DNA of 64,000 nt from Escherichia coli (lineage in GTDB: Bacteria; Pseudomonadota; Gammaproteobacteria; Enterobacterales; Enterobacteriaceae): the NCBI RefSeq assembly GCF_003018115.1, contig NZ_CP027457.1; one strand, 5' to 3'. The translations under genes were made by a program, and so were the position numbers. The stretch's first letter is position 1. Each line of letters opens with the position of its first letter. The notes beneath the pieces were generated by a model. That model saw only the letters and a list, made by a program, of their open reading frames with translations. It was not told where the DNA came from and did not search any database. Of this stretch, positions 7,859 through 41,420 are shown piece after piece.

Positions 7859-7925
7859 AGATTGTTGGTTTTTGCGTGATGGTGACCGGGCAGACTAAAG
7901 GCTATCCTTAACCAGGGAGCTGATT

Positions 7926-30772: not shown

Positions 30773-30795
30773 GGTATGATCATTATGATCATACC
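30773..30795. repeat. Perfect 23-bp palindrome GGTATGATCAT-T-ATGATCATACC
   Basis: 11-bp arms read directly from the sequence. The nearby hairpin ACCGGAA-ttttt-TTCCGGT lies at 30715-30733. Confidence 0.9.
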
Positions 30796-30848
30796 TTTCG
30801 CCCCAATGGGAGGTAAAAGCGCCAACTGGACGGTTAAACCGTCTTTTT

Positions 30849-30883
30849 GTCACATCGTGTCACTGGTTGTCACTCTCCGTCAC
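30849..30883. repeat. Four GTCAC repeats with exact 10-bp phasing
   Basis: GTCACatcgt GTCACtggtt GTCACtctcc GTCAC, starting at 30849, 30859, 30869 and 30879. Preceded by hairpin GACGGTT-a-AACCGTC plus TTTTT. Confidence 0.9.
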
Positions 30884-30910
30884 GATGTCCGCTCGCCTGG
30901 CTGTAAATCA

Positions 30911-31139
30911 AACTACGAAATTTTCGTAGTTGTGAGTAAGCCCCAAAATATGGGGATTACTCTTACTACCCAAACTACGGGTAGTTTCCGTAGTTTCATA
31001 GTCGAGTTGCAGATCTGCAACTCCCCCACCAGCCAGCGCAATTTTGCGCTTTGCTTTAAGTTCAGCGAGTTACAGCGCCGACTTCCTCAAATTGAGGTTG
31101 CCGGAAATATCAACCAGTTACGAGGCTCAAAATTGAGCC
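30911..31139. repeat. Train of seven short palindromes/hairpins in non-coding DNA
   Basis: 30911-31 AACTACGAAAtTTTCGTAGTT; 30941-55 CCCCAaaataTGGGG; 30972-87 AAACTACggGTAGTTT (plus CGTAGTTT at 30989-96); 31004-23 GAGTTGCAGATCTGCAACTC (perfect 20-mer); 31035-50 AGCGCAAttTTGCGCT; 31085-97 CCTCAAaTTGAGG; 31124-39 GGCTCAAaaTTGAGCC. Confidence 0.9.
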
Positions 31140-31156
31140 GCCTTTAAATCAACACG

Positions 31157-31438
31157 TTACCGCCGTAACCGCTCCGGCTTCTTCCAGTTGTACGTAATTT
31201 TCTCTTTCTCCCTGTACATCTCTACACGGCGATTGTAGGCCAGCATTTCAAGAACGCGGATCCGTATGTCGCGCATATCAACGCCATTAAGTTCTATACC
31301 ATCACGGCGCATCACCTCCACCACTACACGCACATAATTATCTGCGGTCATGCTGTCCGGCTGCGTGGCCTGTTCGTCAACCTGCTGGCTGATTCCGGCG
31401 ACGCGGCGGATTAATCCCAGTATTTCGGCTTCTGTCAT
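31157..31438 (-). CDS. Hypothetical island protein (93 aa)
   Basis: ORF with ATG preceded by a G-rich SD-like stretch. Follows repeat copy 1. No recognisable motif. Confidence 0.5.
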   Translation of the reverse strand: MTEAEILGLIRRVAGISQQVDEQATQPDSMTADNYVRVVVEVMRRDGIELNGVDMRDIRIRVLEMLAYNRRVEMYREKEKITYNWKKPERLRR

Positions 31439-31475
31439 TGTGCCCCCATCGCGCTGGTGAAGAAAACAAGCTCAG

Positions 31476-31690
31476 ATTTTTTGTAAAGAATCTGTCACGC
31501 TAAAAGATGTCGAACAAAAAACAACCTTCTTCATCATCTTTTTTACATCAAAGCAATTAAAAACAATCACTTACGAACATGATGATGATGACGATAAAAT
31601 CAAAAAAATGCGTTTTTTTCCGCGCCGCCCGCCCCGTGTTCAGGCCCACCCCACCAGGAGGACCCGCAAAAAAGGCGGCTGGTGCCGCCT
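31476..31690 (-). repeat. Copy 1 of ~215-bp island repeat (terminator + G-rich cos-like core + A/T tracts)
   Basis: Aligns block by block with 34015-34228. Shared blocks: TTTTTGTAAA, GAACAAAAAACAACC, ATAAAATCAAAAAAATGCG, TTTTTCCGCGCC, CCGCCCCGTG, CAGGCCC..CCCCACCAGGAG and the terminator hairpin. Confidence 0.85.
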
Positions 31691-31695
31691 TGTTG

Positions 31696-33585
31696 TCATA
31701 GTGAATCGGTACCGCCTGATTTGACCATACCGCGATAATCCAGAGCTGCCACACCTGCATCAATACGGACTTTCCAGGCCACGCCGTCAACGATAAAACC
31801 TTCCTGCTGTTCAAGGTAAGGCTCGTCATTGCCATCAAGATAAGCCACCTCGATTGTGTCCGTTCCCTGTGCGGAAAGCATGTACCATTGTTTTTCGCTG
31901 ATATCATCAAGGCGGGGATCGACGATGATATCAAGTAGCTTGTGGTACGGGTTAAAGATCCCGCTGTTTTTATCAGCCCCGAAAGGTGCGGTTGAGTTAA
32001 TCATCTGCAACGCGCGATCTTCCAGTGCTGCCGGAACTAAAAGGAATTTAGGCGCAATATTCAGCACTTCGCCATTTTTGTCCTTCTGTGTGCGCATCAG
32101 GTGACGTGCTGCACTAAGTCCCGGTGTTGTCAGTCCTGCTTCAATCAGGTTGCTGTGTTTTTTGTCAAACAGCGTTATTCCGTCAGAAAGTTTTACGTTG
32201 CCTGTAAGCACCAGATTAACCAGATTTCCCACCGTTCTTGATGCTGCACGGCCCATAGCCATTGGCACCGTTGATAACTGATCAAGGTCATCATTGATTA
32301 TCGCCTGGCGGGTAATGCTGAAAATATTCCCGTAAGTAGCCAGCGCGATGGGTTCACCGCGATCGCTGGTGGTGATGTATTTATATTCTGCCCCTTCCGG
32401 CACTTTGTTTAACGTTGAGAAGCCATTCATACCAACGCGGCGGGCTTCCCGGAAGTTTGAAAGGGAACCTTTTTTCGTCCACTGGCGGAATGTTTCGCCG
32501 CTGTGCTCCCAGCCTGCAAGCACTGATTTTTCAGCGCCACCAGCAAGGATATCGGTAAAATCGCTGCTGCTGTGGGTGAATGCCGCGTTTACTATCTGCG
32601 AGCGTGTGCCGTAGCTGCCCGTGCTTATACCACGATGGGTTAATGATGCCTGTGCCATATCGAAAAGGCTCATCATGGCGTAAGGATTACCGCGTTCGGC
32701 CCGTTCGTGACCAAGACGCGCATTAAGCCCCTGACGCATGGCATCGCCGGTTATATTGCCGTTATCCGTGTACGCGTAGTAAAGATTTGCGGGGGTGGTT
32801 TTGTTTGTTGGCGTTGATTCTTTACCCATAGCGAGTAAAAGGCGTTCGCGTGCATTCTCAACGCTACATTCTGAATCCGCAAGACAACTTATAGCCAGGT
32901 CGTTATATCTTCCGTTGAAGGTGCCAAACAATTCACGGATTCCGTTAAGTCGTTCCTGTTCGCCACTGCCAGTTTTCTGGCTGATCATGCTTTTAATTTT
33001 TTCCGGCATATTTGAAAAATCTCCGATTCGTTTTGATTCAATTCGGGCCATTGCTGTAATCGCGGGTATAACCTCATCTGCGAAGCCGTTAGCCTTACAC
33101 TCATTGCCATCCATCCAGGTTTCCGCCTCCATCATTGAGGTGATCTCCTGTTTGCTCCTGCCCGTTCTTCCGGCATAGGTTTCTGCCATCGTGTCGCCCA
33201 GCTTGTCCATCAGATCAGCAAAGCGGCGAACGTCGCCCGACACTCCGGCAGTAACACCACGGGGGGCATGTATCATCATCATCGCGTTTTCAGGCATAAC
33301 GATGTGATCTCCACACATGGCAATAAACGACGCCATAGAAGCCGCCATGCCTTCAATGTGTACGATTTTTTTTGCCGGATGATTTTTCAGGGCGTTATAG
33401 ATAGCCAGCCCTTCAAAGATGTCGCCACCAGGTGAATGAATGCTCAGATGGATTTCAGACGCATTACCACACGCGTTGATCTCGTCAGTAAGTGCCGATG
33501 CTTTTACACCGTACCCGCCGATCTCGTCATAAATGCGCACATAGACAACATCTGCCATAGCCTTAATGGAAAACCATGTTTTCAT
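31696..33585 (-). CDS. ClpP-family prohead protease fused to phage major capsid protein (629 aa)
   Basis: N-terminus: IHSPGGDIFEGLAIYNAL..GMAASMASFIAMCGD..MMMIHAPRG (ClpP/S14-like Ser and His motifs). The C-terminal ~330 aa resembles HK97-fold/Mu gpT-like capsid proteins (..ALATYGNIFSITRQAIINDDL..WYMLSAQGTDTIEVAYLDG..). Assignment is from memory of the family, not from a search. Confidence 0.75.
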   Translation of the reverse strand: MKTWFSIKAMADVVYVRIYDEIGGYGVKASALTDEINACGNASEIHLSIHSPGGDIFEGLAIYNALKNHPAKKIVHIEGMAASMASFIAMCGDHIVMPENAMMMIHAPRGVTAGVSGDVRRFADLMDKLGDTMAETYAGRTGRSKQEITSMMEAETWMDGNECKANGFADEVIPAITAMARIESKRIGDFSNMPEKIKSMISQKTGSGEQERLNGIRELFGTFNGRYNDLAISCLADSECSVENARERLLLAMGKESTPTNKTTPANLYYAYTDNGNITGDAMRQGLNARLGHERAERGNPYAMMSLFDMAQASLTHRGISTGSYGTRSQIVNAAFTHSSSDFTDILAGGAEKSVLAGWEHSGETFRQWTKKGSLSNFREARRVGMNGFSTLNKVPEGAEYKYITTSDRGEPIALATYGNIFSITRQAIINDDLDQLSTVPMAMGRAASRTVGNLVNLVLTGNVKLSDGITLFDKKHSNLIEAGLTTPGLSAARHLMRTQKDKNGEVLNIAPKFLLVPAALEDRALQMINSTAPFGADKNSGIFNPYHKLLDIIVDPRLDDISEKQWYMLSAQGTDTIEVAYLDGNDEPYLEQQEGFIVDGVAWKVRIDAGVAALDYRGMVKSGGTDSL

Positions 33586-33776
33586 AGCCAGGCTCCTAAC
33601 GTTGCCTGGTACCAGTATTCAACCGCGCTGCGTGTGATTTGTCCTTTCGTGGGCACTGGCATACCCGGGTGATTATCTTTGATGAACTGCTGATAGCGTT
33701 CGATCTTCTCCATAGTTCCGGCGTCTATGTGCACAGTGGCACTTTTATCCGGCTTTCTGGTGTTGTTCTCTGGCAT
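33582..33776 (-). CDS. Small protein (64 aa from second Met), possibly ribbon-helix-helix-like, translationally coupled to the capsid fusion
   Basis: GGAGG lies 7 nt before the ATG at 33776 (MPENNTRK..). The stop overlaps the capsid-fusion start (ATGA). The pattern TVHIDAGTMEKIERY..TKGQITRSAVEYWY suggests a beta-alpha-alpha fold. Confidence 0.55.
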   Translation of the reverse strand: MPENNTRKPDKSATVHIDAGTMEKIERYQQFIKDNHPGMPVPTKGQITRSAVEYWYQATLGAWL

Positions 33777-33970
33777 AAATCCGCCTCCGTTTTGATTAAC
33801 GGGCATCATTATTGATCGATAAAAGTAATAGATAAATCATTTTCTACCTGAAAATCAGATTATGTTTTTTCTGATTATCCTCAGAGAGGCAAAGCCATTG
33901 ACGCATTTTTGCTATTGAAGCAATATTAAGACTCGTCATCCTGGCGATAAAAACTCCTTTGTCGTGTAAA

Positions 33971-34008
33971 AGCGCCTCCGGTAACAGCAATCGGGGGCGC
34001 TTTTTTTT
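33971..34008. terminator. Strong hairpin flanked by A8/T8 in the leader of the capsid operon (bidirectional terminator-like)
   Basis: GCGCCTCCG-11 nt-CGGGGGCGC (9 bp, one G.T) followed by TTTTTTTT on the plus strand. On the minus strand the same stem is followed by TTTTAC. Confidence 0.6.
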
Positions 34009-34014
34009 GCGCCT

Positions 34015-34228
34015 GTTTTTTGTAAATGTTTTCGGGAACGTTCCAGTGATGAACAAAAAACAACCCGATTCGACACTAAAAATTTTTATTCCTCAATATA
34101 TCAATAGCTTATAGTGGTGGTGATGGTGCCATAAAAATCAAAAAATGCGCCTTTTTCCGCGCCCCTCCGCCCCGTGGACAGGCCCCCCCCACCAGGAGTA
34201 CCTACAAAAAAGCCGGATTGCTCCGGCT
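34015..34228 (-). repeat. Copy 2 of ~215-bp island repeat
   Basis: See copy 1. The terminator AGCCGGA-ttgc-TCCGGCT plus a T-run (minus strand) lies immediately after the PerC-like gene. Confidence 0.85.
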
Positions 34229-34234
34229 GTGTGA

Positions 34235-34507
34235 TTAGCTGTCTTGGTAATTACACCATATTTCATCGCTTACACCATCTATACCCATTTCAGCATAAGT
34301 GCGATCTACTGCCTTTCTCAGGTCTCCGAAGTTATCCGGCGGCTCCGGTGGCCTCTGTGCCTTCCTGGAACATTCCAGCCGTCGCATCGTAACCTGATGC
34401 CGTTCCTTGTCTGTCTCCACCAGCTGCATGACTTCACCCCATCGCGCCGCCGCCCTCCGGTAAAATCCTTTCGCCTCGAGTTCCTCCGCTATGCGGTCAT
34501 GTATCAT
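34235..34507 (-). CDS. PerC-family-like transcriptional regulator (90 aa)
   Basis: The N-terminal pattern IAEELEAKGFYRRAAARWGEVM resembles the AE.LE..G..RRAA.RW signature I recall for PerC/Pch proteins. Confidence 0.5.
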   Translation of the reverse strand: MIHDRIAEELEAKGFYRRAAARWGEVMQLVETDKERHQVTMRRLECSRKAQRPPEPPDNFGDLRKAVDRTYAEMGIDGVSDEIWCNYQDS

Positions 34508-34772
34508 CGCCTGACTCTCCGGTTTTTACGTTGATGGTTGTTACCTGTTCCGCTTCGGCAATCTCCCGTTCTGTCAACGTGGCAAAGTTTGCCGCCGCTG
34601 TGGTCATGAATGCGCTTATCAGTTCGGGATGCTCCTTCGCGTATCCTTCCCCCGCGTGGCGGTCTATTACCCTGATTGCCACCTTTAAGGCGTGCTCTGT
34701 CATGTCTAACGCTTTATATTTCGGCTCTGTTCTGTCTCTGCGCATTTTGGTTATCTCCTCACTCATGCTCAC
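34497..34772 (-). CDS. Hypothetical island protein (91 aa, GTG start)
   Basis: ORF overlaps the downstream gene by 11 nt. Part of the tightly packed operon. Confidence 0.5.
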   Translation of the reverse strand: MSMSEEITKMRRDRTEPKYKALDMTEHALKVAIRVIDRHAGEGYAKEHPELISAFMTTAAANFATLTEREIAEAEQVTTINVKTGESGDDT

Positions 34773-34958
34773 TTTTACACCTCACTTTTTAAAGCGTCTC
34801 GCTTCGTCTCACTTGATATTTTTTGATGCTTTATGTGTGTGTTTCATAAGGATTTTTTTACTCCTCACTTTTGAGCATGTATACAGGTGAGAAAGTGAGT
34901 AATCGTGTTAATATTTTGTAAAAACCTCACCATTACTCACTTTTGCTACTCACTTTTT
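34758..34958. repeat. Iteron cluster (CTCACTTTT family) flanking an AT-rich core: candidate island replication origin
   Basis: CTCACT(T) copies at 34758, 34768, 34781, 34808, 34864, 34936 and 34949; CTCACC at 34926; inverted GGTGAG/AAAGTGAG at 34886-34899. The AT-rich stretch is 34815-34862. Lies immediately 3' of the replication ATPase gene. Confidence 0.6.
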
Positions 34959-36366
34959 ACAGTGGTCCTACATCATCACCATCAATGTAAATCACGGCGT
35001 CTTTTTCCAGTTTGGCTAACCATCGCCGCATATTTTTCACGTCATACCCAAGCCGTTTCATGTCATCACGTAACAGCGGGATCGTGCACTTGTCGCCGTT
35101 CTGTGTGCGTGAACGGATGCACCCCCATAGTGCGGTATGGTTTTCCGTCTTGTTGCCTGCCTCCTCGATGCGTTCCAGTTCAACGGGAGGGCGCGGCTTA
35201 TCCACCACCACCAGCGACGTGATTAACTCCCCGTCAGCGTCGGTAAACAGCTCCACCACGCGTAAGTCATATGCGGCTTCTTTGAGTTCCTCCGCGTCCT
35301 TCATTTTGGTGCATGAGATAACCAGCGCTTCGCTTCCTGCGTCCTCCCTGCGTATCCGGTATTCAGCATCCAGTGATGCACGAAATGCACTGGAACCGCG
35401 CGCGCCTTTCGTCTCATCCTTGCCGGAATGGTGAACCACCAGCACCGTGGCCCCTGTGCGTCGTTTCAGTTCGTCACAACCACGGATAAACGCCCCCATA
35501 TCACGGGAATCATTTTCATCATTCCCACCAAAGCAACGCGCCAGCGTATCCAGAATAATCATGCGTACAGGTTTACCCGTTTCCCGCTCCACCTGACGGG
35601 CAGCGATAACCATTTCATCAACATCAAGCGGGACCGCCGGAAAGATGGGACGGTTTACCAGATACAGATTTTTCACCTGCTCACCGTGCACAACCTCCCA
35701 GGCTTTTACACGACGCGGAACGCCGATACCGCCTTCACCAACCACATAGAGAACAGCGCCATGCGCCACCCTGCGGCCTCCCCACTGGCGGCCCGTGGAA
35801 ACGTGACACGCCCACGATCCGGCAAGGAATGATTTATAGGAACCGCTCGCCCCGTATATGCTGCAAAGCGACGATGCCGGAATAATCCCCTTTACCACGT
35901 AATCAAGCTGTGTGTCGTATCCGGTAGATCCAACGCTCATCGGTAGCGTGGTTTTTCGCTGGGGGATTTTTTTCATGACCAGGCTTTCCCCGCGTTCCCA
36001 TGCCTCCCTAAGCCGTGGAAGCTGGTCGCTCCATTCCTCCAGCAATTCGAAATTTTCAGAAAGTAGCCGCGCCTCCTGGACTCCGGCGATCGCCAGTTTC
36101 GTGGCGATGGTTAACAGCTGCGGCTCTTCAATATTTCCGGCGCGTATCACCGTCGCCCTGTATCGCCCATCATCAACAATCTGGAGGTTATCCAGTTTGC
36201 TTAACTGATAACGCCCCAGATAAACGGGAGGGACTGGATCGCCTGCTTTTTTGGCCTGTGCAATGATGTAATGCTCTGCGAATGAGTGAGCATCAATACC
36301 CGCAAAAATAATCGCATCGGTGTATTTATCTTTCGGTAATCGTTTTACGTTCGGTGCCAGTTTCAT
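34957..36366 (-). CDS. Replication ATPase, RepA/AAA_25 (RecA-like helicase) family, 469 aa
   Basis: Walker A GASGSYKS, Walker B RMIILDT and VVHHSGKD motif, typical of RepA-like helicases of plasmids and satellites. N-terminal ~140 aa unassigned. No zinc-finger or Toprim primase motifs seen. Confidence 0.7.
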   Translation of the reverse strand: MKLAPNVKRLPKDKYTDAIIFAGIDAHSFAEHYIIAQAKKAGDPVPPVYLGRYQLSKLDNLQIVDDGRYRATVIRAGNIEEPQLLTIATKLAIAGVQEARLLSENFELLEEWSDQLPRLREAWERGESLVMKKIPQRKTTLPMSVGSTGYDTQLDYVVKGIIPASSLCSIYGASGSYKSFLAGSWACHVSTGRQWGGRRVAHGAVLYVVGEGGIGVPRRVKAWEVVHGEQVKNLYLVNRPIFPAVPLDVDEMVIAARQVERETGKPVRMIILDTLARCFGGNDENDSRDMGAFIRGCDELKRRTGATVLVVHHSGKDETKGARGSSAFRASLDAEYRIRREDAGSEALVISCTKMKDAEELKEAAYDLRVVELFTDADGELITSLVVVDKPRPPVELERIEEAGNKTENHTALWGCIRSRTQNGDKCTIPLLRDDMKRLGYDVKNMRRWLAKLEKDAVIYIDGDDVGPL

Positions 36367-36662
36367 TTTTTACCCCTGAATCCGTTAATCATGGTTTTCA
36401 GCTTCTGGATGTTTGCCCGTGCCCTGGCGTTGCTGGTGGGCACGTTATGCGGCGCGGTCTGTACCAGAGAAAAATCACGCCGGAACTGATAAACAGGCAT
36501 CACGCAATCATATTCGTAACCTTCACGGCGGTAAGTTACGCACCGTCCCGCCACGCCCTTAATCATTACCGTGCCGCCGTACTGGTCGCGGTAAATATCA
36601 CCGCGCGTAAATTTAGGGTGAGTGTTGCCACTGGCAGTTAAGCCAGAATATTTAAGTTTCAT
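36363..36662 (-). CDS. Small protein, DUF4222-like (99 aa)
   Basis: The pattern YRDQYGGTVMIKGVAGRCVTYRREGYEYDCVMP resembles remembered DUF4222 proteins found upstream of satellite replication genes. ATGA overlap with the ATPase gene. Confidence 0.45.
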   Translation of the reverse strand: MKLKYSGLTASGNTHPKFTRGDIYRDQYGGTVMIKGVAGRCVTYRREGYEYDCVMPVYQFRRDFSLVQTAPHNVPTSNARARANIQKLKTMINGFRGKK

Positions 36663-36667
36663 TATTT

Positions 36668-36901
36668 TTATTCTCCGGTGTGCTGTTCGTTATATCTGTC
36701 GTGCAATGTCTCTATTTCCTGCAACTCATTTATTACAGGCTCAAGAAGCGTTATTAATGCCGTGGCAATTCTTGATTTTTGTTTGTCGCGTTCATTGTCG
36801 CCAAGTGTTTCAAGCCATATGCGCAATATTTCCATCATATTTTCACTGTGAGAAAGTGCAAGAAATACGCGATCTGTTGTTTCGTGGTAAATATCACGCA
36901 T
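36668..36901 (-). CDS. Hypothetical small helical protein (77 aa)
   Basis: ORF packed 1 nt after the upstream stop. Confidence 0.5.
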   Translation of the reverse strand: MRDIYHETTDRVFLALSHSENMMEILRIWLETLGDNERDKQKSRIATALITLLEPVINELQEIETLHDRYNEQHTGE

Positions 36902-36902
36902 A

Positions 36903-37124
36903 TTAATTACCGTCCGTTGTTTTTCTTAAAACAGCTTCTGTCACGAAATCGGCATAGTTAGCGGCAATATCAAGAATATTTAGCCCTGTATCTCTGTGCT
37001 CATCAGTGCAAAGAAAGAAAAAAGCCACCCGCATAATTTCAGATATTGACGAAAGCGCATCAGCCGCATCATCAGGAACGCCGGAAAATTCTTGTTTCAG
37101 GGAATAAAAACGATCATCACGCAT
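36903..37124 (-). CDS. Hypothetical small protein (73 aa from MRDDRFY)
   Basis: The ATG at 37124 overlaps the upstream stop (ATGCGTGA) and is preceded by a GGGGGGG SD-like run. Confidence 0.5.
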   Translation of the reverse strand: MRDDRFYSLKQEFSGVPDDAADALSSISEIMRVAFFFLCTDEHRDTGLNILDIAANYADFVTEAVLRKTTDGN

Positions 37125-37356
37125 AACCCCCCCCATTTTCACAATCAGTAATCAGGATGGTTTTAGCCTCATTCAGTGCCATATCAGCACTAAATTGCAT
37201 AACAGCCAGTGAGTGAGGAACGAAAGCCCCGGTATATTCTGTTTCGCTGGTGGCGTGCTTATGTGCCCTGTCCGCGATAACAGAAATATCAATCAGCGCG
37301 TGCATCAGCGTTTTGATGGCTTCGGCGGCTGCGTCCGGTGTGGTTTTATTGTGCAT
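37117..37356 (-). CDS. Hypothetical small protein (79 aa)
   Basis: ORF overlaps the upstream ORF by 11 nt. Confidence 0.5.
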   Translation of the reverse strand: MHNKTTPDAAAEAIKTLMHALIDISVIADRAHKHATSETEYTGAFVPHSLAVMQFSADMALNEAKTILITDCENGGGYA

Positions 37357-37675
37357 AAAGCATCCCCTGAATATTCGTGTTAATCATTCCGGCACGTTTT
37401 GTGATTTCCTGTAATGATTCCCTTGTGGCGACAATTGCTTCATCTGGTAAGTGGTAATTACACACCACGCGACCTTTATCCACATTGACCAGTAGCTGCC
37501 CTGTGAATTTCTCACGAAACTGAATGCGGTTAAGGTCAGTAAGTGACAGATTAATAATGGCGCACCTCCTGACGAATACGGGCGGCAAATACAGCAACAC
37601 AACCGGACGGGCAACGGTTACGCGCTTCGCGTTCCGTCCAGGCGGTGACGTGGATGATTTGAGATTCTCCGGCAC
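37346..37675 (-). CDS. Hypothetical protein, start uncertain (109 aa from GTG 37675; ~71 aa if initiated at ATT 37558 after AGGAGG)
   Basis: Long open frame overlapping the icd-like ORF out of frame. A strong AGGAGG (37570-37565) has no canonical start codon at proper spacing, only ATT. Confidence 0.4.
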   Translation of the reverse strand: MPENLKSSTSPPGRNAKRVTVARPVVLLYLPPVFVRRCAIINLSLTDLNRIQFREKFTGQLLVNVDKGRVVCNYHLPDEAIVATRESLQEITKRAGMINTNIQGMLYAQ

Positions 37676-37748
37676 TCAGGGCCAGAAAACGCCACACAAA
37701 GGCAGTTTGTGTGTGTACAAGGTGTGGTATATGATTTACGGCAACCAT
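37551..37748 (-). CDS. Small protein (65 aa), tentatively Icd-like (host cell division inhibitor family)
   Basis: GAGGAG SD 5 nt before the ATG. First gene of the leftward operon. The pattern FVWRFLALS..IIHVTAWTEREARNR..VFAARIRQEV resembles my recollection of Icd-like proteins of P4-like elements. Unverified. Confidence 0.5.
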   Translation of the reverse strand: MVAVNHIPHLVHTQTAFVWRFLALSAGESQIIHVTAWTEREARNRCPSGCVAVFAARIRQEVRHY

Positions 37749-37812
37749 AACGGCTCCTCGTTTACGTTGTTGGTTAGAAGCCCCGTTACTGCTCCTACAG
37801 TGCGGGGTTTCG
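37742..37812 (+). ncRNA. Candidate small RNA A (cis-antisense to the RBS/start of the icd-like gene)
   Basis: Promoter-like TTGTGT (37707-12) -17 bp- TATGAT (37730-35). Hairpin GCCCCG-17 nt-CGGGG (37780-37807) followed by TTTCGTCGTTTC. A homologous unit lies at 38453-38565. Confidence 0.35.
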
Positions 37813-37837
37813 TCGTTTCAACACCTTGCCTAAATAA

Positions 37838-37891
37838 GGTGTTGAACACCAATTTAAATCGAGGTGTTAAACACGTCAAGTGTTGAACACT
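37838..37891. promoter_or_regulatory. Three palindromic operators (GGTGTTGAACACC family) overlapping divergent promoter-like hexamers
   Basis: 37838-50 GGTGTTgAACACC (perfect); 37863-75 GGTGTTaAACACG; 37879-91 AGTGTTgAACACT (perfect). Minus strand: TTGACG (37879-74) -17- TAAATT (37856-51). Plus strand: TTGAAC (37883-88) -17- CATACT. Confidence 0.6.
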
Positions 37892-37940
37892 TATTTTTTT
37901 TCCTGCATACTGCATTTGTTTTTTATGAGGGGTGCTCAAC

Positions 37941-38120
37941 ATGGCGACAAAAGCAGTAAACGCAAAATCACAAACAGTTGCGGCAAGGGTTCCACATGAA
38001 GTTATGAACAATGTTGAGGCGGTAAAAATGCCCGGCGAAAGTACAGGGCAGTTTGTTACAGCTGCATTAAAGCGGGAAGTTGAATACCGCCAGCGTCGCA
38101 AGGCCAAAGAATCAGAATAA
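37941..38120 (+). CDS. Ribbon-helix-helix DNA-binding protein 1 (59 aa)
   Basis: ATG preceded by GAGGGG. TVAARVPHEVMNNVEAV..STGQFVTAALKREV fits a beta-strand/helix/helix (CopG/Arc/MetJ) layout. Confidence 0.65.
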   Translation: MATKAVNAKSQTVAARVPHEVMNNVEAVKMPGESTGQFVTAALKREVEYRQRRKAKESE

Positions 38121-38177
38121 TCACTATCAGCGCCGTGGTGTGAGGTACTACGGCGCATTGCTTTACAGGGCAGTATC

Positions 38178-38405
38178 ATGACCAACAACACACTATCACC
38201 AATACAAGACACGCAAACGCAAGATGATGAAATCATCCGGCAAAGGCAGTCAGAAGCCTGCGCCAGACTTGAGGAAGAACTAACCAGAACAAAAATACCA
38301 CCACCAGCGCCGCGCTTAGTGCCACCAGAAAAATTTGCCCTTGAAGATTTTGTCGATAAATACCCACGGCGGCTTAAATCCGGCAAAAACCGACCGCCTG
38401 GCTGA
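38178..38405 (+). CDS. Small protein (75 aa), paralog of 38856..39059
   Basis: MTNN.. start. Shares the motif F.L(E/D)(D/E)F(V/L).KY.R with the second copy. Confidence 0.5.
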   Translation: MTNNTLSPIQDTQTQDDEIIRQRQSEACARLEEELTRTKIPPPAPRLVPPEKFALEDFVDKYPRRLKSGKNRPPG

Positions 38406-38487
38406 GTGCACAAAACCGAACTATGAAACGGATTATTCCGTTTCCGGGGCGTTTGTGTGTGTATAAAGAGTAAGCTATGCTCTTTTA

Positions 38488-38565
38488 TAGCCATAATCGT
38501 TACCTCAATTAATGGTTTGGTTAGACGCCCCGTATGTGAGCCACCACTGCGGGGCGTTGTTTTTT
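38488..38565 (+). ncRNA. Candidate small RNA B (homolog of RNA A with a strong intrinsic terminator)
   Basis: TTGTGT (38453-58) -17 bp- TATGCT (38476-81). TTGGTTAGA, then stem ACGCCCCG (38525-32) / CGGGGCGT (38550-57), then TTGTTTTTTG. Confidence 0.4.
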
Positions 38566-38583
38566 GTATAACGGTAAGTACAA

Positions 38584-38624
38584 TGGTAATTACCATGTAA
38601 CTATAGTAATTAAGGGTAATTACC
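38584..38624. promoter_or_regulatory. Palindromic operators GGTAATTACC (x2, plus a degenerate middle copy) at the RHH-2 start
   Basis: TGGTAATTACCA at 38584-95, AGTAATTAAG at 38605-14, GGTAATTACC at 38615-24, abutting the ATG at 38625. Confidence 0.55.
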
Positions 38625-38798
38625 ATGTCAACACCATTGGAAAAGCGATCGCCTCCATACCAAATGCGGCTACCAGAAGAATTCAGAGCACAACTTGAAG
38701 AGGCAGCGAAAGCAGACGGTGACACTTCTTTAGCCACCTGGATCAAGCGAGTACTCCGAAAAGAATTACAGCAACGCGGTATTGAACCCAAAGGATAA
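38625..38798 (+). CDS. Ribbon-helix-helix (Arc-like) DNA-binding protein 2 (57 aa; below the ORF-track cutoff)
   Basis: Manual translation gives MSTPLEKRSPPYQMRLPEEFRAQLEEAAKADGDTSLATWIKRVLRKELQQRGIEPKG. The MRLPEE..L..AA...G.S....I pattern is typical of Arc/MetJ-type repressors. AAGGG SD lies 8 nt upstream. Confidence 0.6.
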   Translation: MSTPLEKRSPPYQMRLPEEFRAQLEEAAKADGDTSLATWIKRVLRKELQQRGIEPKG

Positions 38799-38855
38799 AA
38801 AACATCAGCGCCGTGGCGTGAGGAACTCCGGCGCATTGCTTTACAGGTACACACA

Positions 38856-39059
38856 ATGACCAACAAAGAATCAACCAATACACCATCGCAAAAAACGAAC
38901 AGAGAGCACGAAAATATGGCGTTCGAGCATGAATCAGAAAGATTCGCACCATGCGCTTTTGTCCTTGATGAGTTTCTAAAAAAATATTCACGTTCTGAAC
39001 GGATGAAAATGGCAGCACAATACGGCCCCAACAAGCAAGATAATTGCCCACCAGCCTGA
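38856..39059 (+). CDS. Small protein (67 aa), paralog of 38178..38405
   Basis: MTNK.. start with FVLDEFLKKYSRSERMK motif. Preceded by the conserved 44-nt hairpin block. Confidence 0.5.
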   Translation: MTNKESTNTPSQKTNREHENMAFEHESERFAPCAFVLDEFLKKYSRSERMKMAAQYGPNKQDNCPPA

Positions 39060-39127
39060 TCGCGGTTATCATGCCCGGGCTTATGATTGTTGACACATAC
39101 GGCGCAGCGGGTTAATTGTTCAGAAAG

Positions 39128-39156
39128 GTGGCTCCATTTCGGGGCCGCTTTTTTTA
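39128..39156 (+). terminator. Rho-independent terminator ending the rightward RHH operon
   Basis: GGCTCC-atttc-GGGGCC stem, then GC and TTTTTTT. Confidence 0.6.
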
Positions 39157-39180
39157 TGTTCATCATTTGCCCTATATATG

Positions 39181-39387
39181 TTAAGCGGTCGTTCCGCGCG
39201 CTTCTTGTTCGCGTTCTTTCATCCATGCGATTACGTCTTCCTCATACCATCCGCGACGGCGCAAACCGACACGAAAACCCTGCGGGAATTCTCCGGCGTT
39301 GATCATGCTTTGCAGCGTGCTGTCTGCCTTAATGTGGATAAGTTTTTTTACTTCCTGGCGAAAGATGACTTTTTTGATTGCTTCCAT
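39181..39387 (-). CDS. AlpA-family phage regulatory protein / excisionase-like (68 aa)
   Basis: The pattern ..LIHIKADSTLQSMINAGEFPQGFRVGLRRRGWYEEDVIAWM.. matches the MerR-like wHTH AlpA/Xis family signature (R.v.W...dV..W). Confidence 0.8.
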   Translation of the reverse strand: MEAIKKVIFRQEVKKLIHIKADSTLQSMINAGEFPQGFRVGLRRRGWYEEDVIAWMKEREQEARGTTA

Positions 39388-39406
39388 CGTGATTTACCTC
39401 ATTAAT

Positions 39407-39488
39407 CCGGTGTATTCCGGTGAGAAATACGGTAAATCATCGGATGCAGGGAAAAACAGTACTCACCGTTTTTAAACGGTATACACCG
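39407..39488. promoter_or_regulatory. Nested inverted repeat across the alpA promoter region
   Basis: CCGGTGTAT (39407-15) and CCGGTGAG (39417-24) pair with CTCACCG (39462-68) and ATACACCG (39481-88). Confidence 0.55.
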
Positions 39489-39520
39489 TTTTTTATATTG
39501 ATGATTTGAAAGGGATTTAT

Positions 39521-39546
39521 AAAAAAAGCGGCATTTCTGCCGCTTT
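39521..39546 (-). terminator. Rho-independent terminator after orf83
   Basis: Minus strand: GCGGCA-gaaa-TGCCGC followed by TTTTTTT. Confidence 0.7.
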
Positions 39547-39554
39547 CAGGATTG

Positions 39555-39806
39555 TTACCGCCATTTTTTTGGCCTGCCTCCGGTCTTCATGGATGCCGGA
39601 CGTACAACCTTATCAATACTTACAGCCAGATTTCTGGAAGCCCCACGGGATACCAGGAAATCTACTACCTGTTTTTTTGATGGGGCCGTCGTTCTGTCCT
39701 CCGGATCGTAGGTTGACCAAAATTCATGCTGAACCATCAGGGCCAGTTGCAGCCCGTCGCAATTGCATCTGAAATTTGTTTGCATCTTAACAGTTTCATT
39801 TTTCAA
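39555..39806 (-). CDS. Hypothetical protein (83 aa) downstream of int, basic C-terminus (GGRPKKWR)
   Basis: ORF between int and its terminator. No confident family assignment. Confidence 0.45.
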   Translation of the reverse strand: MKNETVKMQTNFRCNCDGLQLALMVQHEFWSTYDPEDRTTAPSKKQVVDFLVSRGASRNLAVSIDKVVRPASMKTGGRPKKWR

Positions 39807-39883
39807 GGCCTCGTCGTTAAATGTGATGCAATTATACGACGGTTTTAAATGGTTTTCGTAGTTTTTACTGGTTTTCTGTACAG

Positions 39884-41125
39884 CTAAACGGCTCGGATAC
39901 CCCTTTTACCACTGGCGAGGGTTACGCCCGTCGCCGCAGCCTCGACAAATTCGCCCCACCAGCGCATAAGCACGATGCGTTTTTCTATGTAGTTGCTCCG
40001 GTTGTATGCCCGTCTGACTTCGTTGGTGTCGACGTGGGCAAGTGCGGCCTCTATTACGTCCGGCTCAAAGCCTTCTTCGTTCGCTGCTGTGCTGAATATG
40101 GCGCGTAATCCATGAGACACCAGCACGCCAGCGAATCCCATGCGTCGTAATGCTGCGTTAGCGGTCTGGCTGTTCATCGGCTGCTGTGGGTCTTTCAGAC
40201 TCGGGAAAACATAATCGCGGTGGTGGCTGATTGGTTTCATAGCCTCCAGCACTGCCATAGCCTGGTCACAAAGCGGGATAACGTGGTCGCGGCGCATCTT
40301 CATGCGTCCGGCGGGTATGGTCCAGCGTTGCGCTTCCATGTCGATTTCTTCCCAGCGTGCCGACGATGCTTCAACGGGACGGGTTACGGTCAGTAACTGC
40401 CATTCAATCAGTAATCTGGTCTGCCGTTCTGTTGCCGATACTGATAAAGCCTGCATAAGCTCCGGCAGCTGTTCGGGGCGGATTGTTGGCATATGTTTTT
40501 TTACAGGGGAGGGGAACGCCTTACGCACATTCATAGCCGGATTGGCATCAATCATCCCACTATTGGCGGCGTAATCCATTACCTCATTTATACGCTGTAA
40601 AACTCGCTTGAGCGTTTCCAGGTTGCCACGTTCCTTGATGGGGGTAAGCACCTCAACGAACCTGCGAGCGGTCAGGGTGTCTATTGGCGTGTTGCCGATG
40701 AACGGGAATACATATTTTTCCAGCGATCGCCAGATGTCTTTAATCGTATTGGGGGCCAGATTCTGGCTGATTTTCACCTGGTACCATGCTGTTGCCACAT
40801 TTTCGAACGTGTTCCCTTGTCTTCGGGCCTCTGTCTCTCTTTTTTGCCTCTCGTGGTCCTGCGGGTCAGTTCCGGCACGAATTAACGCCCTGTACTCGCT
40901 ACGGCGTTTTCTGGCATCAGCCAGGGAAACATCATCAAGCGATCCAAAACTCAGCAATATTCTTTTTTTGTCCGATGGTCGGTAGTAGGAAAATCTCCAG
41001 AGTTTTGATCCGGACGGTTTGATCAGGAGAAAAAGCCCTCCGCCGTCCTGTAGGGTGTATTCCTTTTCTGCTGGTCTGGCTGCTTTGATCTGTACTGTGG
41101 TTAATGGGGGTGTTTTTCTCGCCAT
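39884..41125 (-). CDS. Tyrosine integrase, P4-type (413 aa)
   Basis: N-terminal DUF4102-like arm-binding region (LTTVQIKAARPAEKEYTLQDGGGLFLLIKPSGSKLWRF). C-terminal catalytic motifs (HGLRAIFST..AHVDTNEVRRAYNRSNY). Adjacent to the tRNA. Confidence 0.92.
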   Translation of the reverse strand: MARKTPPLTTVQIKAARPAEKEYTLQDGGGLFLLIKPSGSKLWRFSYYRPSDKKRILLSFGSLDDVSLADARKRRSEYRALIRAGTDPQDHERQKRETEARRQGNTFENVATAWYQVKISQNLAPNTIKDIWRSLEKYVFPFIGNTPIDTLTARRFVEVLTPIKERGNLETLKRVLQRINEVMDYAANSGMIDANPAMNVRKAFPSPVKKHMPTIRPEQLPELMQALSVSATERQTRLLIEWQLLTVTRPVEASSARWEEIDMEAQRWTIPAGRMKMRRDHVIPLCDQAMAVLEAMKPISHHRDYVFPSLKDPQQPMNSQTANAALRRMGFAGVLVSHGLRAIFSTAANEEGFEPDVIEAALAHVDTNEVRRAYNRSNYIEKRIVLMRWWGEFVEAAATGVTLASGKRGIRAV

Positions 41126-41156
41126 ATGCTTATGATTCCAAACGAAAAAACAGGGT

Positions 41157-41212
41157 TTTAGTTATACGGCTTTAGTTATACGTCAGCCCGTATAACTAAA
41201 CGTATAACTAAA
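41157..41212. promoter_or_regulatory. Four 12-mers (2 direct TTTAGTTATACG + 2 inverted CGTATAACTAAA) upstream of int
   Basis: Copies at 41157-68, 41171-82, 41189-200 and 41201-12. Same motif as 30579-30602 at the other island end. Confidence 0.6.
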
Positions 41213-41215
41213 AAA

Positions 41216-41336
41216 TCCGGCTGATAGCTTATAAATCCGGTGATGTTCGGTGACTAAAAACCATAAAAAAACCCGCCAATCAAGTAATTGGCGGGCTATC
41301 CCTGTCTTATTCGATGATTTCCGGTGGTATCCGGTG
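41216..41336. promoter_or_regulatory. Cluster of TCCGGTG-type motifs between int and the att core
   Basis: TCCGGCTG at 41216, TCCGGTG at 41236, TTCGGTG at 41246, TCCGGTG at 41320 and 41330. The same heptamer occurs twice in the alpA promoter (39406-39424). Confidence 0.5.
41264..41295 (-). terminator. Rho-independent terminator downstream of proL (supplied by island DNA)
   Basis: Minus strand: CCCGCCAAT-loop-ATTGGCGGG followed by TTTTTTT. Confidence 0.7.
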
Positions 41337-41358
41337 GGCGATTTGGTCGGCACGAGAG
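41337..41358. repeat. tRNA-proximal att repeat
   Basis: GGCGATTTGGTCGGCACGAGAG. Pairs with 30496-30517. Confidence 0.75.
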
Positions 41359-41420
41359 GATTTGAACCTCCGACCCCCGACACCCCATGACGGTGCGCTA
41401 CCAGGCTGCGCTACGTGCCG
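41344..41420 (-). tRNA. proL: tRNA-Pro (anticodon GGG)
   Basis: Reverse complement is CGGCACGTAGCGCAGCCTGGTAGCGCACCGTCATGGGGTGTCGGGGGTCGGAGGTTCAAATCCTCTCGTGCCGACCA (77 nt, encoded CCA, T-loop GGTTCAAATCC, U-GGG-G anticodon loop). Confidence 0.93.

What the first reader, a model, noticed from the sequence alone, without database searches (positions are those of the whole stretch)
37707..37812. Candidate ~70-nt RNA exactly antisense to the SD and start codon of the first gene of the leftward operon
Seen: a plus-strand TTGTGT-17-TATGAT promoter predicts a start near 37742. The minus-strand icd-like gene has its ATG at 37748-37746 and GAGGAG at 37759-37754, so the RNA would cover both. The RNA ends in a GCCCCG/CGGGG hairpin at 37780-37807. 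The predicted leftward promoter (TTGACG-17-TAAATT, start near 37844) would place the whole RNA opposite the mRNA leader. Established: P1/P7 c4 and P4 CI are small antisense RNAs that control icd-ant and the P4 replication operon respectively. Inference: an analogous but cis-encoded RNA immunity layer operating on top of the RHH repressor.
Basis: inference. Interest (0 to 1): 0.65.

Follow-up and report, generated by a model that had tools for sequence, protein, structure and literature searches.

The report
SymR-like antisense RNA in phage satellite
A small, structured RNA gene lies back-to-back with the first gene of a phage-parasitic island in E. coli; like its distant relatives SymR and sar, it most likely silences that gene, and perhaps the operon behind it, by covering its ribosome-binding site.

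Summary
Every motif is at the stated coordinates. The promoter alone is no better than chance (8/12). Comparison settles the matter: about 100 related loci keep a TAnnnT -10 box 5-8 nt before a two-hairpin RNA. For this RNA 96% of pair cells are paired, 13 of 25 pairs show compensatory changes, and 173 G.U pairs work only on the + strand against 13 on the - strand. A covariance model finds exactly two copies in the window: 37742-37819, and an orphan copy at 38489-38566.

In O157:H7 Sakai the homologue opposite ECs_1577 was recovered in published RNase E CLASH data. There were 196 hybrids in sRNA sense, spanning 80 nt, overlapping Hfq sites, and never named.

Rfam's symR model matches relatives full length at sub-threshold scores (33-35 bits). 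My model in turn finds K-12 symR (29 bits) and, weakly, a sar RNA.

Best reading: a diverged SymR/sar-type cis-antisense RNA (~78 nt) that covers the SD and start codon of the icd-like gene of a PICI-type satellite. It probably blocks translation, with mRNA decay and Rho polarity on the operon as further effects. The existence of the RNA is well supported; its regulatory effect is inferred. It is not a c4 or CI relative. It is a new variant of a known kind and occurs in about 23% of complete E. coli genomes.

The parts
37707..37712 (+). -35-like hexamer TTGTGT of the antisense-RNA promoter (weak, 3/6)
   Evidence: Sequence. -35 matches are poor across the whole family (2-4 of 6). The hexamer overlaps codons His-Thr-Gln of the icd-like gene, so its conservation may be due to coding.
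37730..37735 (+). -10 hexamer TATGAT of the antisense-RNA promoter, embedded in codons 5-7 (Asn-His-Ile) of the icd-like gene
   Evidence: All 81 distinct family members have a -10-like hexamer ending 5-8 nt before the first hairpin. For 79 of them the script's pick is a TAnnnT; for L023 and L058 it chose an offset hexamer, and by eye TAAAAT and TAATAT lie beside it. This holds even where the first gene is unrelated. It aligns with the TAGAAT of K-12 symR, which was knocked down experimentally by silent mutations (PMC1891008).
37742..37819 (+). Predicted antisense sRNA (~78 nt), SymR/sar-type
   Evidence: CM R1 hit at 37740-37822, 65.9 bits, E 1.6e-12. Fold z -4.34. The homologue in Sakai was recovered as an 80-nt RNase E CLASH cluster in sRNA sense.
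37743..37775 (+). Stem-loop 1. AACCAUAACG pairs with CGUUG-UUGGUU, so the stem holds the anti-start-codon CAU. The 12-nt loop 37753-37764 carries the anti-SD CUCCUC (37754-37759).
   Evidence: Helix 1 is 94.3% paired with 6 compensatory pairs. Many G.U pairs are valid only on the + strand.
37777..37811 (+). Stem-loop 2, the terminator hairpin (GAAGCCCCG../..CGGGGUUUC), followed by a U-rich tail to about 37819
   Evidence: Helix 2 is 97.6% paired with 7 compensatory pairs. In Sakai the two arms were ligated to each other in CLASH reads, and the cluster ends in the U tract.
37551..37748 (-). Target: the icd-like gene (65 aa), first gene of the leftward operon. SD GAGGAG 37759-37754, ATG 37748-37746.
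   Evidence: NCBIfam NF033153, E 5.2e-18, with the domain starting only at residue 17. PGAP annotation of the identical copy.
37851..37879 (-). Leftward operon promoter TTGACG-17-TAAATT (start about 37844). It places the whole sRNA opposite the mRNA leader.
   Evidence: Promoter scan, 9/12. It is embedded in GGTGTT/AACACC operator-like repeats.
37941..38120 (+). Divergent YlcI/YnfO-family small regulator (presumed repressor of the leftward promoter)
   Evidence: NCBIfam NF041551, E 2.4e-16. PGAP start. No DNA binding was tested.
38489..38566 (+). Second, orphan copy of the sRNA. -35 TTGTGT 38453-58; -10 TATGCT 38476-81; good terminator GCCCCG..CGGGGC plus GUUGUUUUUUG.
   Evidence: CM R1, 80.7 bits, E 8e-16. 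Fold z -5.29. Repeat family D2.
38450..38494 (-). 5' fragment of an icd-like gene (MAIKEHSLLFIHTQT) opposite sRNA copy 2; the rest of the gene has been replaced
   Evidence: Translation. The similarity ends after the HTQT codons.
38603..38631 (-). Leftward promoter of module 2 (TTGACA-17-TACTAT, 10/12), flanked by GGTAATTACC operators, next to the second small regulator at 38625-38798

Best explanation
Window 37742-37819 (+) encodes a constitutively transcribed, two-hairpin antisense RNA of about 78 nt. It is a diverged member of the SymR/sar type. Its promoter lies inside codons 5-7 of the icd-like gene. The transcript starts 4-6 nt inside that gene, runs across its start codon and Shine-Dalgarno sequence, and stops at a GC hairpin just short of the operators.

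The host element is a ~10.7-kb PICI-type phage satellite at tRNA-Pro. Every leftward transcript from the satellite's early promoter contains the perfect complement of this RNA.

Proposed mechanism:
1. The anti-SD loop of hairpin 1 contacts the SD region of the mRNA.
2. Pairing spreads into a ~78-bp duplex.
3. The 30S subunit is excluded, so Icd-like protein is not made.
4. The untranslated, duplexed leader is exposed to RNase III/E and to Rho. This also lowers expression of the downstream replication and packaging genes.
5. Strong induction of the leftward promoter would outrun the RNA and, by convergent transcription, shut off its promoter.

Shown: the motifs, the conserved + strand structure, the conserved promoter geometry, expression of the homologue in EHEC Sakai, and relatedness to SymR.
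Inferred: translational repression, the polarity and decay effects, and the threshold behaviour on induction.
For: Structure on the + strand. RNAfold gives a lower energy for the + strand than for the - strand in 73 of 73 distinct sequences, by 12.5 kcal/mol on average. z-scores are -4.3 and -5.3 for the + strand against -1.9 and -2.9 for the - strand. On the unfitted MAFFT alignment A3, 93.9% of cells are paired, against 29-46% when partners are slid; the covariation score is 0.288 against 0.168, with 0/500 shuffles reaching it. There are 173 G.U cells (valid on + only) and 13 A.C cells (valid on - only). On the CM alignment of 66 distinct sequences, 96.2% of cells are paired, 13 of 25 pairs are compensatory, and all five measures score 0/500.

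Promoter. A -10-like hexamer ends 5-8 nt before hairpin 1 in all 81 distinct sequences (a TAnnnT in 79 by the script; L023 and L058 by eye). The variable base is hexamer position 4, while the overlapping codon changes between His, Tyr and Asn. The box is also present where the first gene is a 743-aa helicase-methylase or an 86-aa Cys-rich protein.

Specificity. CM R1 finds exactly two hits in 64 kb.

Expression. Waters et al. 2017, Table EV2, has a row asECs1576/asECs1577 with 196 unique hybrids, seen in 2 replicate datasets, both halves overlapping Hfq sites. The read is sRNA-sense, with the hairpin-2 arms in permuted order. The cluster spans 80 nt.

Homology. Rfam symR matches relatives full length at 35.3, 33.3 and 32.8 bits. 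R1 matches the annotated K-12 symR at 29.4 bits, E 3e-5, with the next best hit at 8.9 bits. K-12 symR has the same -10 / 7-nt / +1 layout.

Function of the relative. SymR represses SymE synthesis, mainly at the level of translation (PMC1891008).

Polarity. sRNA pairing at an RBS provokes Rho-dependent polarity (PMC12360218).
Against: There are no transcript data for this strain or for this exact allele. The Sakai homologue shares the first 42 nt (one mismatch), but the top of hairpin 2 and the right flank differ.

Conversion of CLASH coordinates from the old to the current Sakai record rests on an inferred offset of 139 nt.

The CLASH hybrids are intramolecular. They prove that the RNA and hairpin 2 exist, not that the RNA pairs with the mRNA.

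The window's promoter has a poor -35 and no clean extended -10. The U tract of copy 1 is interrupted.

The window copies do not match Rfam symR or sar directly, even at E<=10.

Tree et al. 2014 did not list an sRNA in Sp7.

Some icd-like genes manage without the module (E. albertii L006).

The toxicity of this Icd-like protein is unknown.
Confidence: 0.72

Rival explanations
1. The RNA is real, but its main job is that of a type I antitoxin. Icd-like would be a toxic cell-division inhibitor, and the stable antisense RNA would prevent leaky synthesis or stabilise the island by addiction. It would not gate satellite induction.
For: The relative SymR is classed as a type I antitoxin (Rfam RF01809 description; PMC1891008). 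P1 Icd inhibits cell division (established knowledge). The layout is the same as symE/symR.
Against: The same cassette also heads operons whose first gene is not a plausible toxin: a 743-aa helicase-methylase in L035 and an 86-aa Cys-rich protein before a GroES-like gene in L041. Copy 2 in the window is kept intact although its target gene is truncated. This reading is not exclusive of the main explanation.
Confidence: 0.2
2. The RNA is chiefly a trans-acting, Hfq-dependent sRNA. Its targets would be in the helper phage, the host, or co-resident satellites. The overlap with the icd-like start would be incidental, or only one of several targets.
For: Both CLASH halves overlap Hfq-CRAC sites. 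The RNA has a terminator hairpin plus U tail. The 3' domain is shared between variants whose 5' halves differ. The orphan copy 2 could still pair with mRNA 1 (duplexfold -77.5 kcal/mol against -161 for the cognate pair). E. coli genomes hold up to 6 copies.
Against: In every variant the RNA covers the SD and start codon of the adjacent first gene, and its promoter sits in that gene's first codons. No trans partner was seen in the stored part of Table EV2, but that file was cut when stored.
Confidence: 0.15
3. The conserved structure works in the minus-strand mRNA leader, for example as a stabiliser, a processing site or an antitermination site. The + strand promoter would be a chance match.
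For: The complement also forms a hairpin near the 5' end of the leader. The + strand promoter is only 8/12.
Against: There are 173 G.U against 13 A.C cells. Pairing is 93.9% on + and 79.7% on -. The - strand is less stable in 73 of 73 sequences. There is no U run after the hairpin on the - strand. CLASH reads are in + (sRNA) sense. The -10 box is conserved at a fixed distance.
Confidence: 0.04
4. The hairpin is only an insulating terminator that stops stray rightward transcription from entering the operator and regulator region. There would be no dedicated sRNA.
For: A GC hairpin with a U-rich tail lies exactly at the mosaic boundary with interchangeable regulator modules.
Against: This does not explain hairpin 1 and its covariation. 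It does not explain the fixed -10 spacing, the 80-nt discrete CLASH cluster, or the similarity to SymR over its full length.
Confidence: 0.04

Closest known systems
SymR antisense RNA of E. coli symE/symR (Rfam RF01809; Kawano, Aravind & Storz 2007, PMC1891008)
   Same: [quoted passage not shown] The layout is -10 (TAGAAT), 7 nt, then +1 A of AGUCAU, the anti-start codon. It has the same two-hairpin architecture, the same UGUGAUUAG / UGUGGUUAG linker, and a near-identical apex GUGUUGGCGCAC in hairpin 2 of some variants. Covariance-model hits are reciprocal.
   Different: Scores are below Rfam's gathering threshold, and the window copies are not detected directly. The target is an Icd-like protein at the head of a satellite's early operon, not the AbrB-fold SymE. 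The opposing promoter is controlled by small YlcI/Arc-like regulators, not by LexA. The RNA is multi-copy and mosaic, and sits on mobile satellites.
P22-type sar RNA (Rfam RF00262), antisense to the antirepressor RBS in immI
   Same: It is a small cis-antisense RNA (~68 nt) that covers the SD and start of an early phage gene. Its promoter lies in that gene's 5' end, next to small Arc/Mnt-type repressors. Its hairpin 2, CGAAGCCCUG...GGGGCUUC, is very like the one here. The Sakai Sp6 example (EcOnc54) scores 66.7 bits on sar, and R1 scores 19.5 bits on it. [quoted passage not shown]
   Different: There is no sar hit on the window. Hairpin 1 differs and the target gene differs (ant versus icd-like). 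sar belongs to lambdoid/P22-like prophages, not to satellites.
P1/P7 c4 RNA (Rfam RF01695) controlling icd-ant; P4 CI RNA
   Same: These are small RNAs that mask the RBS of the first gene (icd in P1) of a phage or satellite operon and so shut the operon off by polarity (established knowledge: Biere, Citron & Schuster 1992).
   Different: c4 and CI are processed from the same strand as their target and pair through short loops. Here the RNA is transcribed from the opposite strand and is fully complementary. There is no C4 match in the window. Relatives L040 and L053 carry a true C4/isrK RNA as well as this antisense RNA.
IS10 RNA-OUT / RNA-IN; hok/Sok
   Same: These are short, stable cis-antisense RNAs from a promoter just inside the target gene. 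They cover the translation start and initiate pairing through a loop (established knowledge).
   Different: No sequence relationship was detected: no Rfam family matched the window copies. The elements and targets differ (a transposase; a membrane toxin via mok).

Membership tests
SymR (Rfam RF01809) | Scores at or above the Rfam gathering threshold (61 bits) on the symR covariance model | tested here: not met
   The window copies give no symR hit even at E<=10. Relatives L010, L003 and L040 score 35.3, 33.3 and 32.8 bits, full length.
SymR (Rfam RF01809) | Reciprocal similarity between the satellite RNA family and authentic symR | tested here: met
   CM R1, built only from satellite RNAs, hits K-12 symR at 7833-7920 (annotated 7836-7912) with 29.4 bits, E 3.3e-5. 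The next best hit is 8.9 bits.
SymR (Rfam RF01809) | [quoted passage not shown] | tested here: met
   Sequence. -10 survey. Alignment with symR. Description in PMC1891008.
SymR (Rfam RF01809) | The target is symE (an AbrB-fold, SOS/LexA-controlled toxin) | tested here: not met
   The target is an Icd-like protein (NF033153). The neighbouring regulators are of the YlcI/YnfO family.
SymR (Rfam RF01809) | Represses translation of the target | not testable with these tools
   This needs fusions and mutants.
sar RNA (Rfam RF00262) | Scores at or above gathering (43 bits) on the sar model | tested here: not met
   There is no sar hit on window 37300-38300, 38350-38700 or 37730-37830 at E<=10. The positive control in Sakai Sp6 scores 66.7 bits.
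C4 antisense RNA (Rfam RF01695) / P4 CI | Match to the C4 model; RNA on the same strand as, and processed from, the operon transcript | tested here: not met
   There is no C4, isrK or c4-a1b1 hit in the window, whereas L040 and L053 give 77.6 and 74 bits. The RNA here is on the opposite strand. No P4 CI model was available, so only the strand criterion was tested for CI.
Independent sRNA gene (sigma-70 promoter plus intrinsic terminator) | Promoter: -10 and -35 hexamers with 16-18 nt spacing | tested here: inconclusive
   The -10 is 5/6 and conserved across the family. The -35 is only 3/6, and the site is below the scan threshold. The homologous symR -10 is experimentally validated.
Independent sRNA gene (sigma-70 promoter plus intrinsic terminator) | GC-rich hairpin followed by a U tract on the RNA strand | tested here: met
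   Hairpin at 37777-37811. The U tract is interrupted in copy 1 and good in copy 2. The Sakai CLASH cluster ends in the U tract. The simple scan missed both hairpins because the stem is bulged.
Independent sRNA gene (sigma-70 promoter plus intrinsic terminator) | Transcript detected in vivo | tested here: inconclusive
   It was detected for the Sakai Sp7 homologue in published CLASH data. There are no data for this allele or strain.
Type I toxin-antitoxin | The protein partner is toxic when expressed without the RNA | not testable with these tools
   The only basis is the family name 'host cell division inhibitor Icd-like'.

The most novel reading that the evidence does not exclude
SymR and sar may be the two characterised tips of one large, unrecognised superfamily of mobile-element antisense RNAs. 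This superfamily would travel as a portable 5' cassette made of the first ~8 codons (with the embedded sRNA promoter), the translation-initiation region, the leader and the two-hairpin RNA.

The cassette would have been recombined in front of unrelated first genes: symE, icd-like/Ash, a helicase-methylase, and small Cys-rich proteins. In E. coli phage satellites it would be the RNA master switch that holds the whole early (replication and packaging) operon off until the helper phage induces it. The shared 3' domain and the orphan copies would give cross-repression between co-resident satellites.
Probability: 0.3. Interest if true: 0.78.

Novelty: new variant of a known kind. Interest (0 to 1): 0.6.

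Why it matters
Control of Gram-negative PICI-type satellites is currently described in terms of proteins (AlpA and small repressors). I base that on my own knowledge of the field and on library searches that found no report of this RNA.

A conserved antisense RNA sits on the translation start of the first early gene. It occurs in about 23% of complete E. coli genomes, including O157:H7 and O145. It adds an RNA layer that could set the induction threshold, limit leaky synthesis of a division inhibitor, and mediate interference between satellites.

It also places SymR, long treated as an isolated chromosomal oddity, in a wider mobile-element family next to sar. The region has no ncRNA feature in any of the four RefSeq records inspected, and no Rfam family reaches threshold on it. 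It therefore gives a concrete candidate for a new Rfam family or clan.

The claim is directly testable with three silent base changes.

Tried and rejected
Rfam. A gathering-threshold scan of the whole window, and E-value scans of both copies, gave nothing relevant. The ar14 hit (12.8 bits) and the R1162 hit (17.9 bits, on the wrong strand) are chance.

c4/CI membership was rejected on strand and on the covariance model.

The simple promoter and terminator scan did not list the + strand promoter or either terminator.

GenBank phage records gave no match by blastn.

A protein-guided scan of one genome per species returned only 3 loci, all Escherichia or Shigella, which is too few for statistics. 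I therefore used a DNA pattern in IMG/VR instead. That fixes the TGGTTAGA-N-GCCC-N-GT core by construction, so the conservation of those 14 bases is not evidence. About 18 of the IMG/VR hits were chance matches and were removed.

Literature. Nothing was found for 14-mers of the RNA, for icd-like plus antisense, for PICI plus sRNA or AlpA, or for phage satellite plus antisense RNA. The Pas sRNA preprint is unrelated. The EcOnc list of Tree et al. 2014 has no entry in Sp7.

The anti-SD-like CUCCUA in the loop of hairpin 2 is not conserved, so I dropped it as a functional element.

An mRNA-leader structure was rejected on the G.U/A.C asymmetry.
Full report
CONTEXT. The window is E. coli chromosome: MicF at 5146-5239 and tRNA-Pro(GGG) at 41344-41420. 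The finding lies in the 183-bp divergent intergenic region of a ~10.7-kb integrated element next to that tRNA. The element carries the following genes:
- an integrase (39884-41125, -);
- an AlpA-like HTH gene (39181-39387, -);
- two small YlcI/YnfO-type regulators (37941-38120 and 38625-38798, +);
- a leftward operon that starts with a 65-aa Icd-like gene (37551-37748) and continues through a DUF4222 gene, a RepA-family helicase, PerC and a ClpP-protease/major-capsid fusion.
This is the gene content of a PICI-type phage satellite. The same 651-bp regulatory segment is 100% identical in a different satellite, inserted at roxA in strain 2013C-3181.

THE OBSERVATION.
- TTGTGT 37707-12, 17 nt, TATGAT 37730-35;
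- CAT 37746-48;
- CTCCTC 37754-59;
- GCCCCG/CGGGG hairpin 37780-37807;
- leftward TTGACG-17-TAAATT at 37879-37851.
Taken alone the + strand promoter is weak (8/12). It was not listed by the scan, which at 9/12 finds no more sites than shuffled sequence does (3 found, 4.2 expected). The terminator scan did not list the hairpin either. On this one sequence the proposal was plausible but not beyond chance.

COMPARATIVE EVIDENCE. Megablast showed that the hairpin segment is the shared piece between otherwise different left and right flanks, so it sits at a mosaic junction. A pattern scan of IMG/VR, plus E. coli loci, gave about 100 true instances, reduced to 66-81 distinct sequences depending on the window compared, in several sequence families.

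Folded one by one, the + strand always forms two adjacent hairpins. In hairpin 1 the complement of the start-codon region (window AACCAUAACG, 37743-52) pairs with CGUUG-UUGGUU (37765-75), and the loop exposes the anti-SD. Hairpin 2 is the terminator (37777-37811). The + strand is more stable than the - strand in 73 of 73 sequences, by 12.5 kcal/mol on average. For the two window copies z is -4.3 and -5.3 on the + strand, against -1.9 and -2.9 on the - strand.

On a MAFFT alignment that was not fitted to any structure:
- 93.9% of cells pair, against 29-46% when partners are slid;
- 9 pairs show changes on both sides;
- the covariation score is 0.288 against 0.168, with 0/500 shuffles reaching it.
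On the Infernal alignment, 96.2% of cells pair, 13 of 25 pairs are compensatory, and all measures score 0/500.

The strand is decided by wobble pairs. There are 173 G.U cells, which pair only in + strand RNA, and 13 A.C cells, which would pair only in the complement. The conserved TGGTTAGA-N-GCCC core was fixed by my search pattern, so its conservation is not evidence. Its base N does covary with the tail base (A-U, C-G, G.U).

PROMOTER. All 81 distinct sequences carry a -10-like hexamer ending 5-8 nt before the first base of hairpin 1. For 79 of them the script's pick is a TAnnnT. For L023 and L058 it chose an offset hexamer (AATTGT, AATATT), and by eye TAAAAT and TAATAT lie beside it. The hexamers seen are TATGAT, TATGCT, TATAAT, TATTAT, TATCAT, TAGACT, TACAAT and TAGAAT. 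An extended -10 TGn occurs in 43 of the 81. The -35 is poor everywhere.

The hexamer lies in codons 4-7 of the first gene. Within one family it varies at hexamer position 4, while the overlapping codon switches between His, Tyr and Asn. That pattern fits selection on the promoter better than selection on the protein. The box is also present where the first gene is unrelated: a 743-aa helicase-methylase in L035 and an 86-aa Cys-rich protein ahead of a GroES-like gene in L041. The Icd-like HMM starts only at residue 17, so the first ~16 codons belong to the cassette rather than to the Icd domain.

SPECIFICITY AND SPREAD. A covariance model (R1) finds exactly two hits in the 64-kb window: 37740-37822 (65.9 bits) and 38486-38569 (80.7 bits). 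The second copy has its own TTGTGT-17-TATGCT promoter (38453-81) and a good terminator. It faces only a 15-codon fragment of an icd-like gene. It lies next to a second promoter/operator/regulator module.

A locus retrieved through the protein rather than the pattern (E. ruysiae, L007) has the RNA. An E. albertii icd-like gene (L006) does not. blastn with the 83-nt RNA finds it in 1259 of 5426 complete E. coli genomes, with up to 6 places per genome. The four records whose annotation I inspected carry no ncRNA feature there. It is absent from GenBank phage records.

EXPERIMENTAL TRACE. O157:H7 Sakai carries the module in 'prophage Sp7; untypable' beside roxA/pepT, opposite ECs_1577. Its first 42 nt differ from the window RNA at one base.

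Table EV2 of Waters et al. 2017 (RNase E CLASH in Sakai; PMC5286369) contains this row: asECs1576 1597315-1597288 / asECs1577 1597367-1597312, count_total 196 unique hybrids, seen in 2 replicate datasets, both halves overlapping Hfq-CRAC sites, read AATGACACTTGCGGGGCT|AGAAGCCCTGCGAGTGGT.

Both halves are in sRNA sense. They are adjacent in the genome but permuted in the read, so the two arms of hairpin 2 were ligated to each other. The cluster is 80 nt long. With the offset that places the read on the current record (139 nt), it runs from the C seven nt after TATGAT to the end of GGGGCUUUGCUUUUUU. Those positions correspond to window 37742 and to the U tail. The offset is my inference; a second landmark brackets it at 131-148.

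The authors label the RNA only 'asmRNA'. It is not among the EcOnc sRNAs of Tree et al. 2014. This shows that the RNA exists and folds as predicted in a close homologue. It does not show regulation.

WHAT IT IS RELATED TO. The window has no match to C4, isrK, sar or symR. However, Rfam's symR model aligns full length, at exactly the sRNA coordinates, to other variants: L010 at 35.3 bits (E 1.4e-5), L003 at 33.3 and L040 at 32.8. The gathering threshold is 61. Conversely R1 hits the annotated K-12 symR at 29.4 bits (E 3.3e-5), with the next best hit at 8.9 bits.

K-12 symR has the same plan: TAGAAT, 7 nt, +1 A of AGUCAU, hairpin 1, UGUGAUUAG, and hairpin 2 with a GUGUUGGCGCAC apex. SymR is a 77-nt RNA opposite the 5' end of symE, with its promoter embedded in the coding sequence. 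Its -10 was inactivated by two silent changes. It represses SymE mainly at the level of translation (PMC1891008).

R1 also hits, weakly (19.5 bits), the sar RNA of Sakai Sp6 (EcOnc54; Rfam sar 66.7 bits). That RNA covers the SD and start of an antirepressor gene and has a very similar hairpin 2.

The RNA is therefore best described as a third, diverged branch of SymR/sar-type antisense RNAs. It fails the formal Rfam thresholds of both families.

MECHANISM (inferred). The leftward promoter (start about 37844) puts the entire complement of the RNA in the mRNA leader. The cognate duplex is predicted at -161 kcal/mol. By analogy with SymR and sar, pairing should exclude the ribosome from the icd-like start. 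Loss of translation of a first cistron, together with a long duplex, is expected to expose the transcript to RNase III/E and to Rho-dependent polarity (PMC12360218; the P1 c4/icd precedent is from established knowledge). That would extend repression to the replication and packaging genes. The two promoters are convergent and about 100 bp apart, which would give a threshold-like switch on induction. None of these steps was tested here.

RIVALS. Reading the structure as an mRNA-leader element is contradicted by the wobble asymmetry and by the sense of the CLASH reads. A mere insulating terminator does not explain hairpin 1, the fixed -10 spacing, or the full-length similarity to SymR. Two readings stay open and are not exclusive of the main one. 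The first is a type I antitoxin role; the toxicity of Icd-like is untested, and the cassette also heads non-toxin genes. The second is a partly trans-acting, Hfq-associated role, suggested by the orphan copy 2, the shared 3' domain and the Hfq overlap.

VERDICT. Novelty: a new variant of a known kind. Interest is moderate to high, because the RNA is widespread, unannotated and directly testable, and because it links SymR and sar to satellite biology.

Noticed in passing
window 38450-38640 (and repeat 38114-38188 / 38792-38866): The regulatory region is a tandem of two paralogous modules. Each has a leftward promoter with its own operators, an sRNA, a small YlcI/Arc-like regulator, a conserved hairpin after that gene, and an ORF that begins ATGACCAACAA. 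Module 2 faces only a 15-codon icd-like fragment. Its strong promoter (38631-38603, 10/12) would read leftwards through module 1.
   Followed up: partly
L040 646-844 (-) and L053 2998-3202 (+): Related satellites carry bona fide Rfam C4 (77.6 and 74 bits), isrK (66 and 37.6 bits) and c4-a1b1 elements on the operon strand, just downstream of or overlapping the icd-like ORF. These are in addition to the antisense RNA. The window element has none. In L040 the isrK match overlaps the 3' half of the annotated Icd-like ORF, which raises the question of whether some 'Icd-like' calls are partly RNA genes.
   Followed up: partly
L035 8798-11106; L041 3384-3720; L033, L054, L115: The same promoter and two-hairpin cassette (R1 52-56 bits) sits opposite the start of unrelated first genes in metagenomic viral contigs. 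In a high-GC contig the gene is a 743-aa SNF2-helicase/methylase fusion. In a low-GC phage-like contig it is an 86-aa Cys-rich protein followed by a GroES-like gene. The hosts are unknown.
   Followed up: partly
L130 463-529 (-) = NC_002695.2 about 1577262-1577328: The Sakai sRNA candidate EcOnc54 (Tree et al. 2014) is a sar RNA (Rfam RF00262, 66.7 bits). It is antisense to the SD and start of the Sp6 antirepressor gene ECs_1557. I did not see this identification stated in the parts of the papers I read.
   Followed up: partly
L006 2380-2520 (E. albertii): An icd-like gene of the abundant 'MATTP...' type has no SymR-like module upstream. A different hairpin (CCACCGCCGGAGGTGG) occupies the leader, so the cassette is not universal for icd-like genes.
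   Followed up: no
window 37736-39226 (-): A 496-aa ORF stays open on the minus strand across the whole regulatory region, antisense to both small regulator genes. It is probably spurious. In relatives PGAP annotates an 'Icd-like, incomplete' pseudogene in the corresponding place (L004 3403-3996, L129 9163-9756).
   Followed up: no
window 37792-37797: The loop of hairpin 2 in this allele carries a second anti-SD-like CUCCUA. Other alleles have UUAGCG, UUCCCAG and so on, so it is not conserved. A weak Rfam ar14 match (12.8 bits, E 1.1) stems from the two CUCCU loops and is chance.
   Followed up: yes
window 30700-41420 versus L001 (NZ_CP027312): The 651-bp icd-like/sRNA/regulator segment is 100% identical in two satellites with different integrases, insertion sites (tRNA-Pro versus roxA) and capsid modules (ClpP-MCP fusion versus separate MCP plus decoration protein). 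Recent exchange of the regulatory module seems likely. The island also encodes a PerC-family activator (34235-34507).
   Followed up: partly
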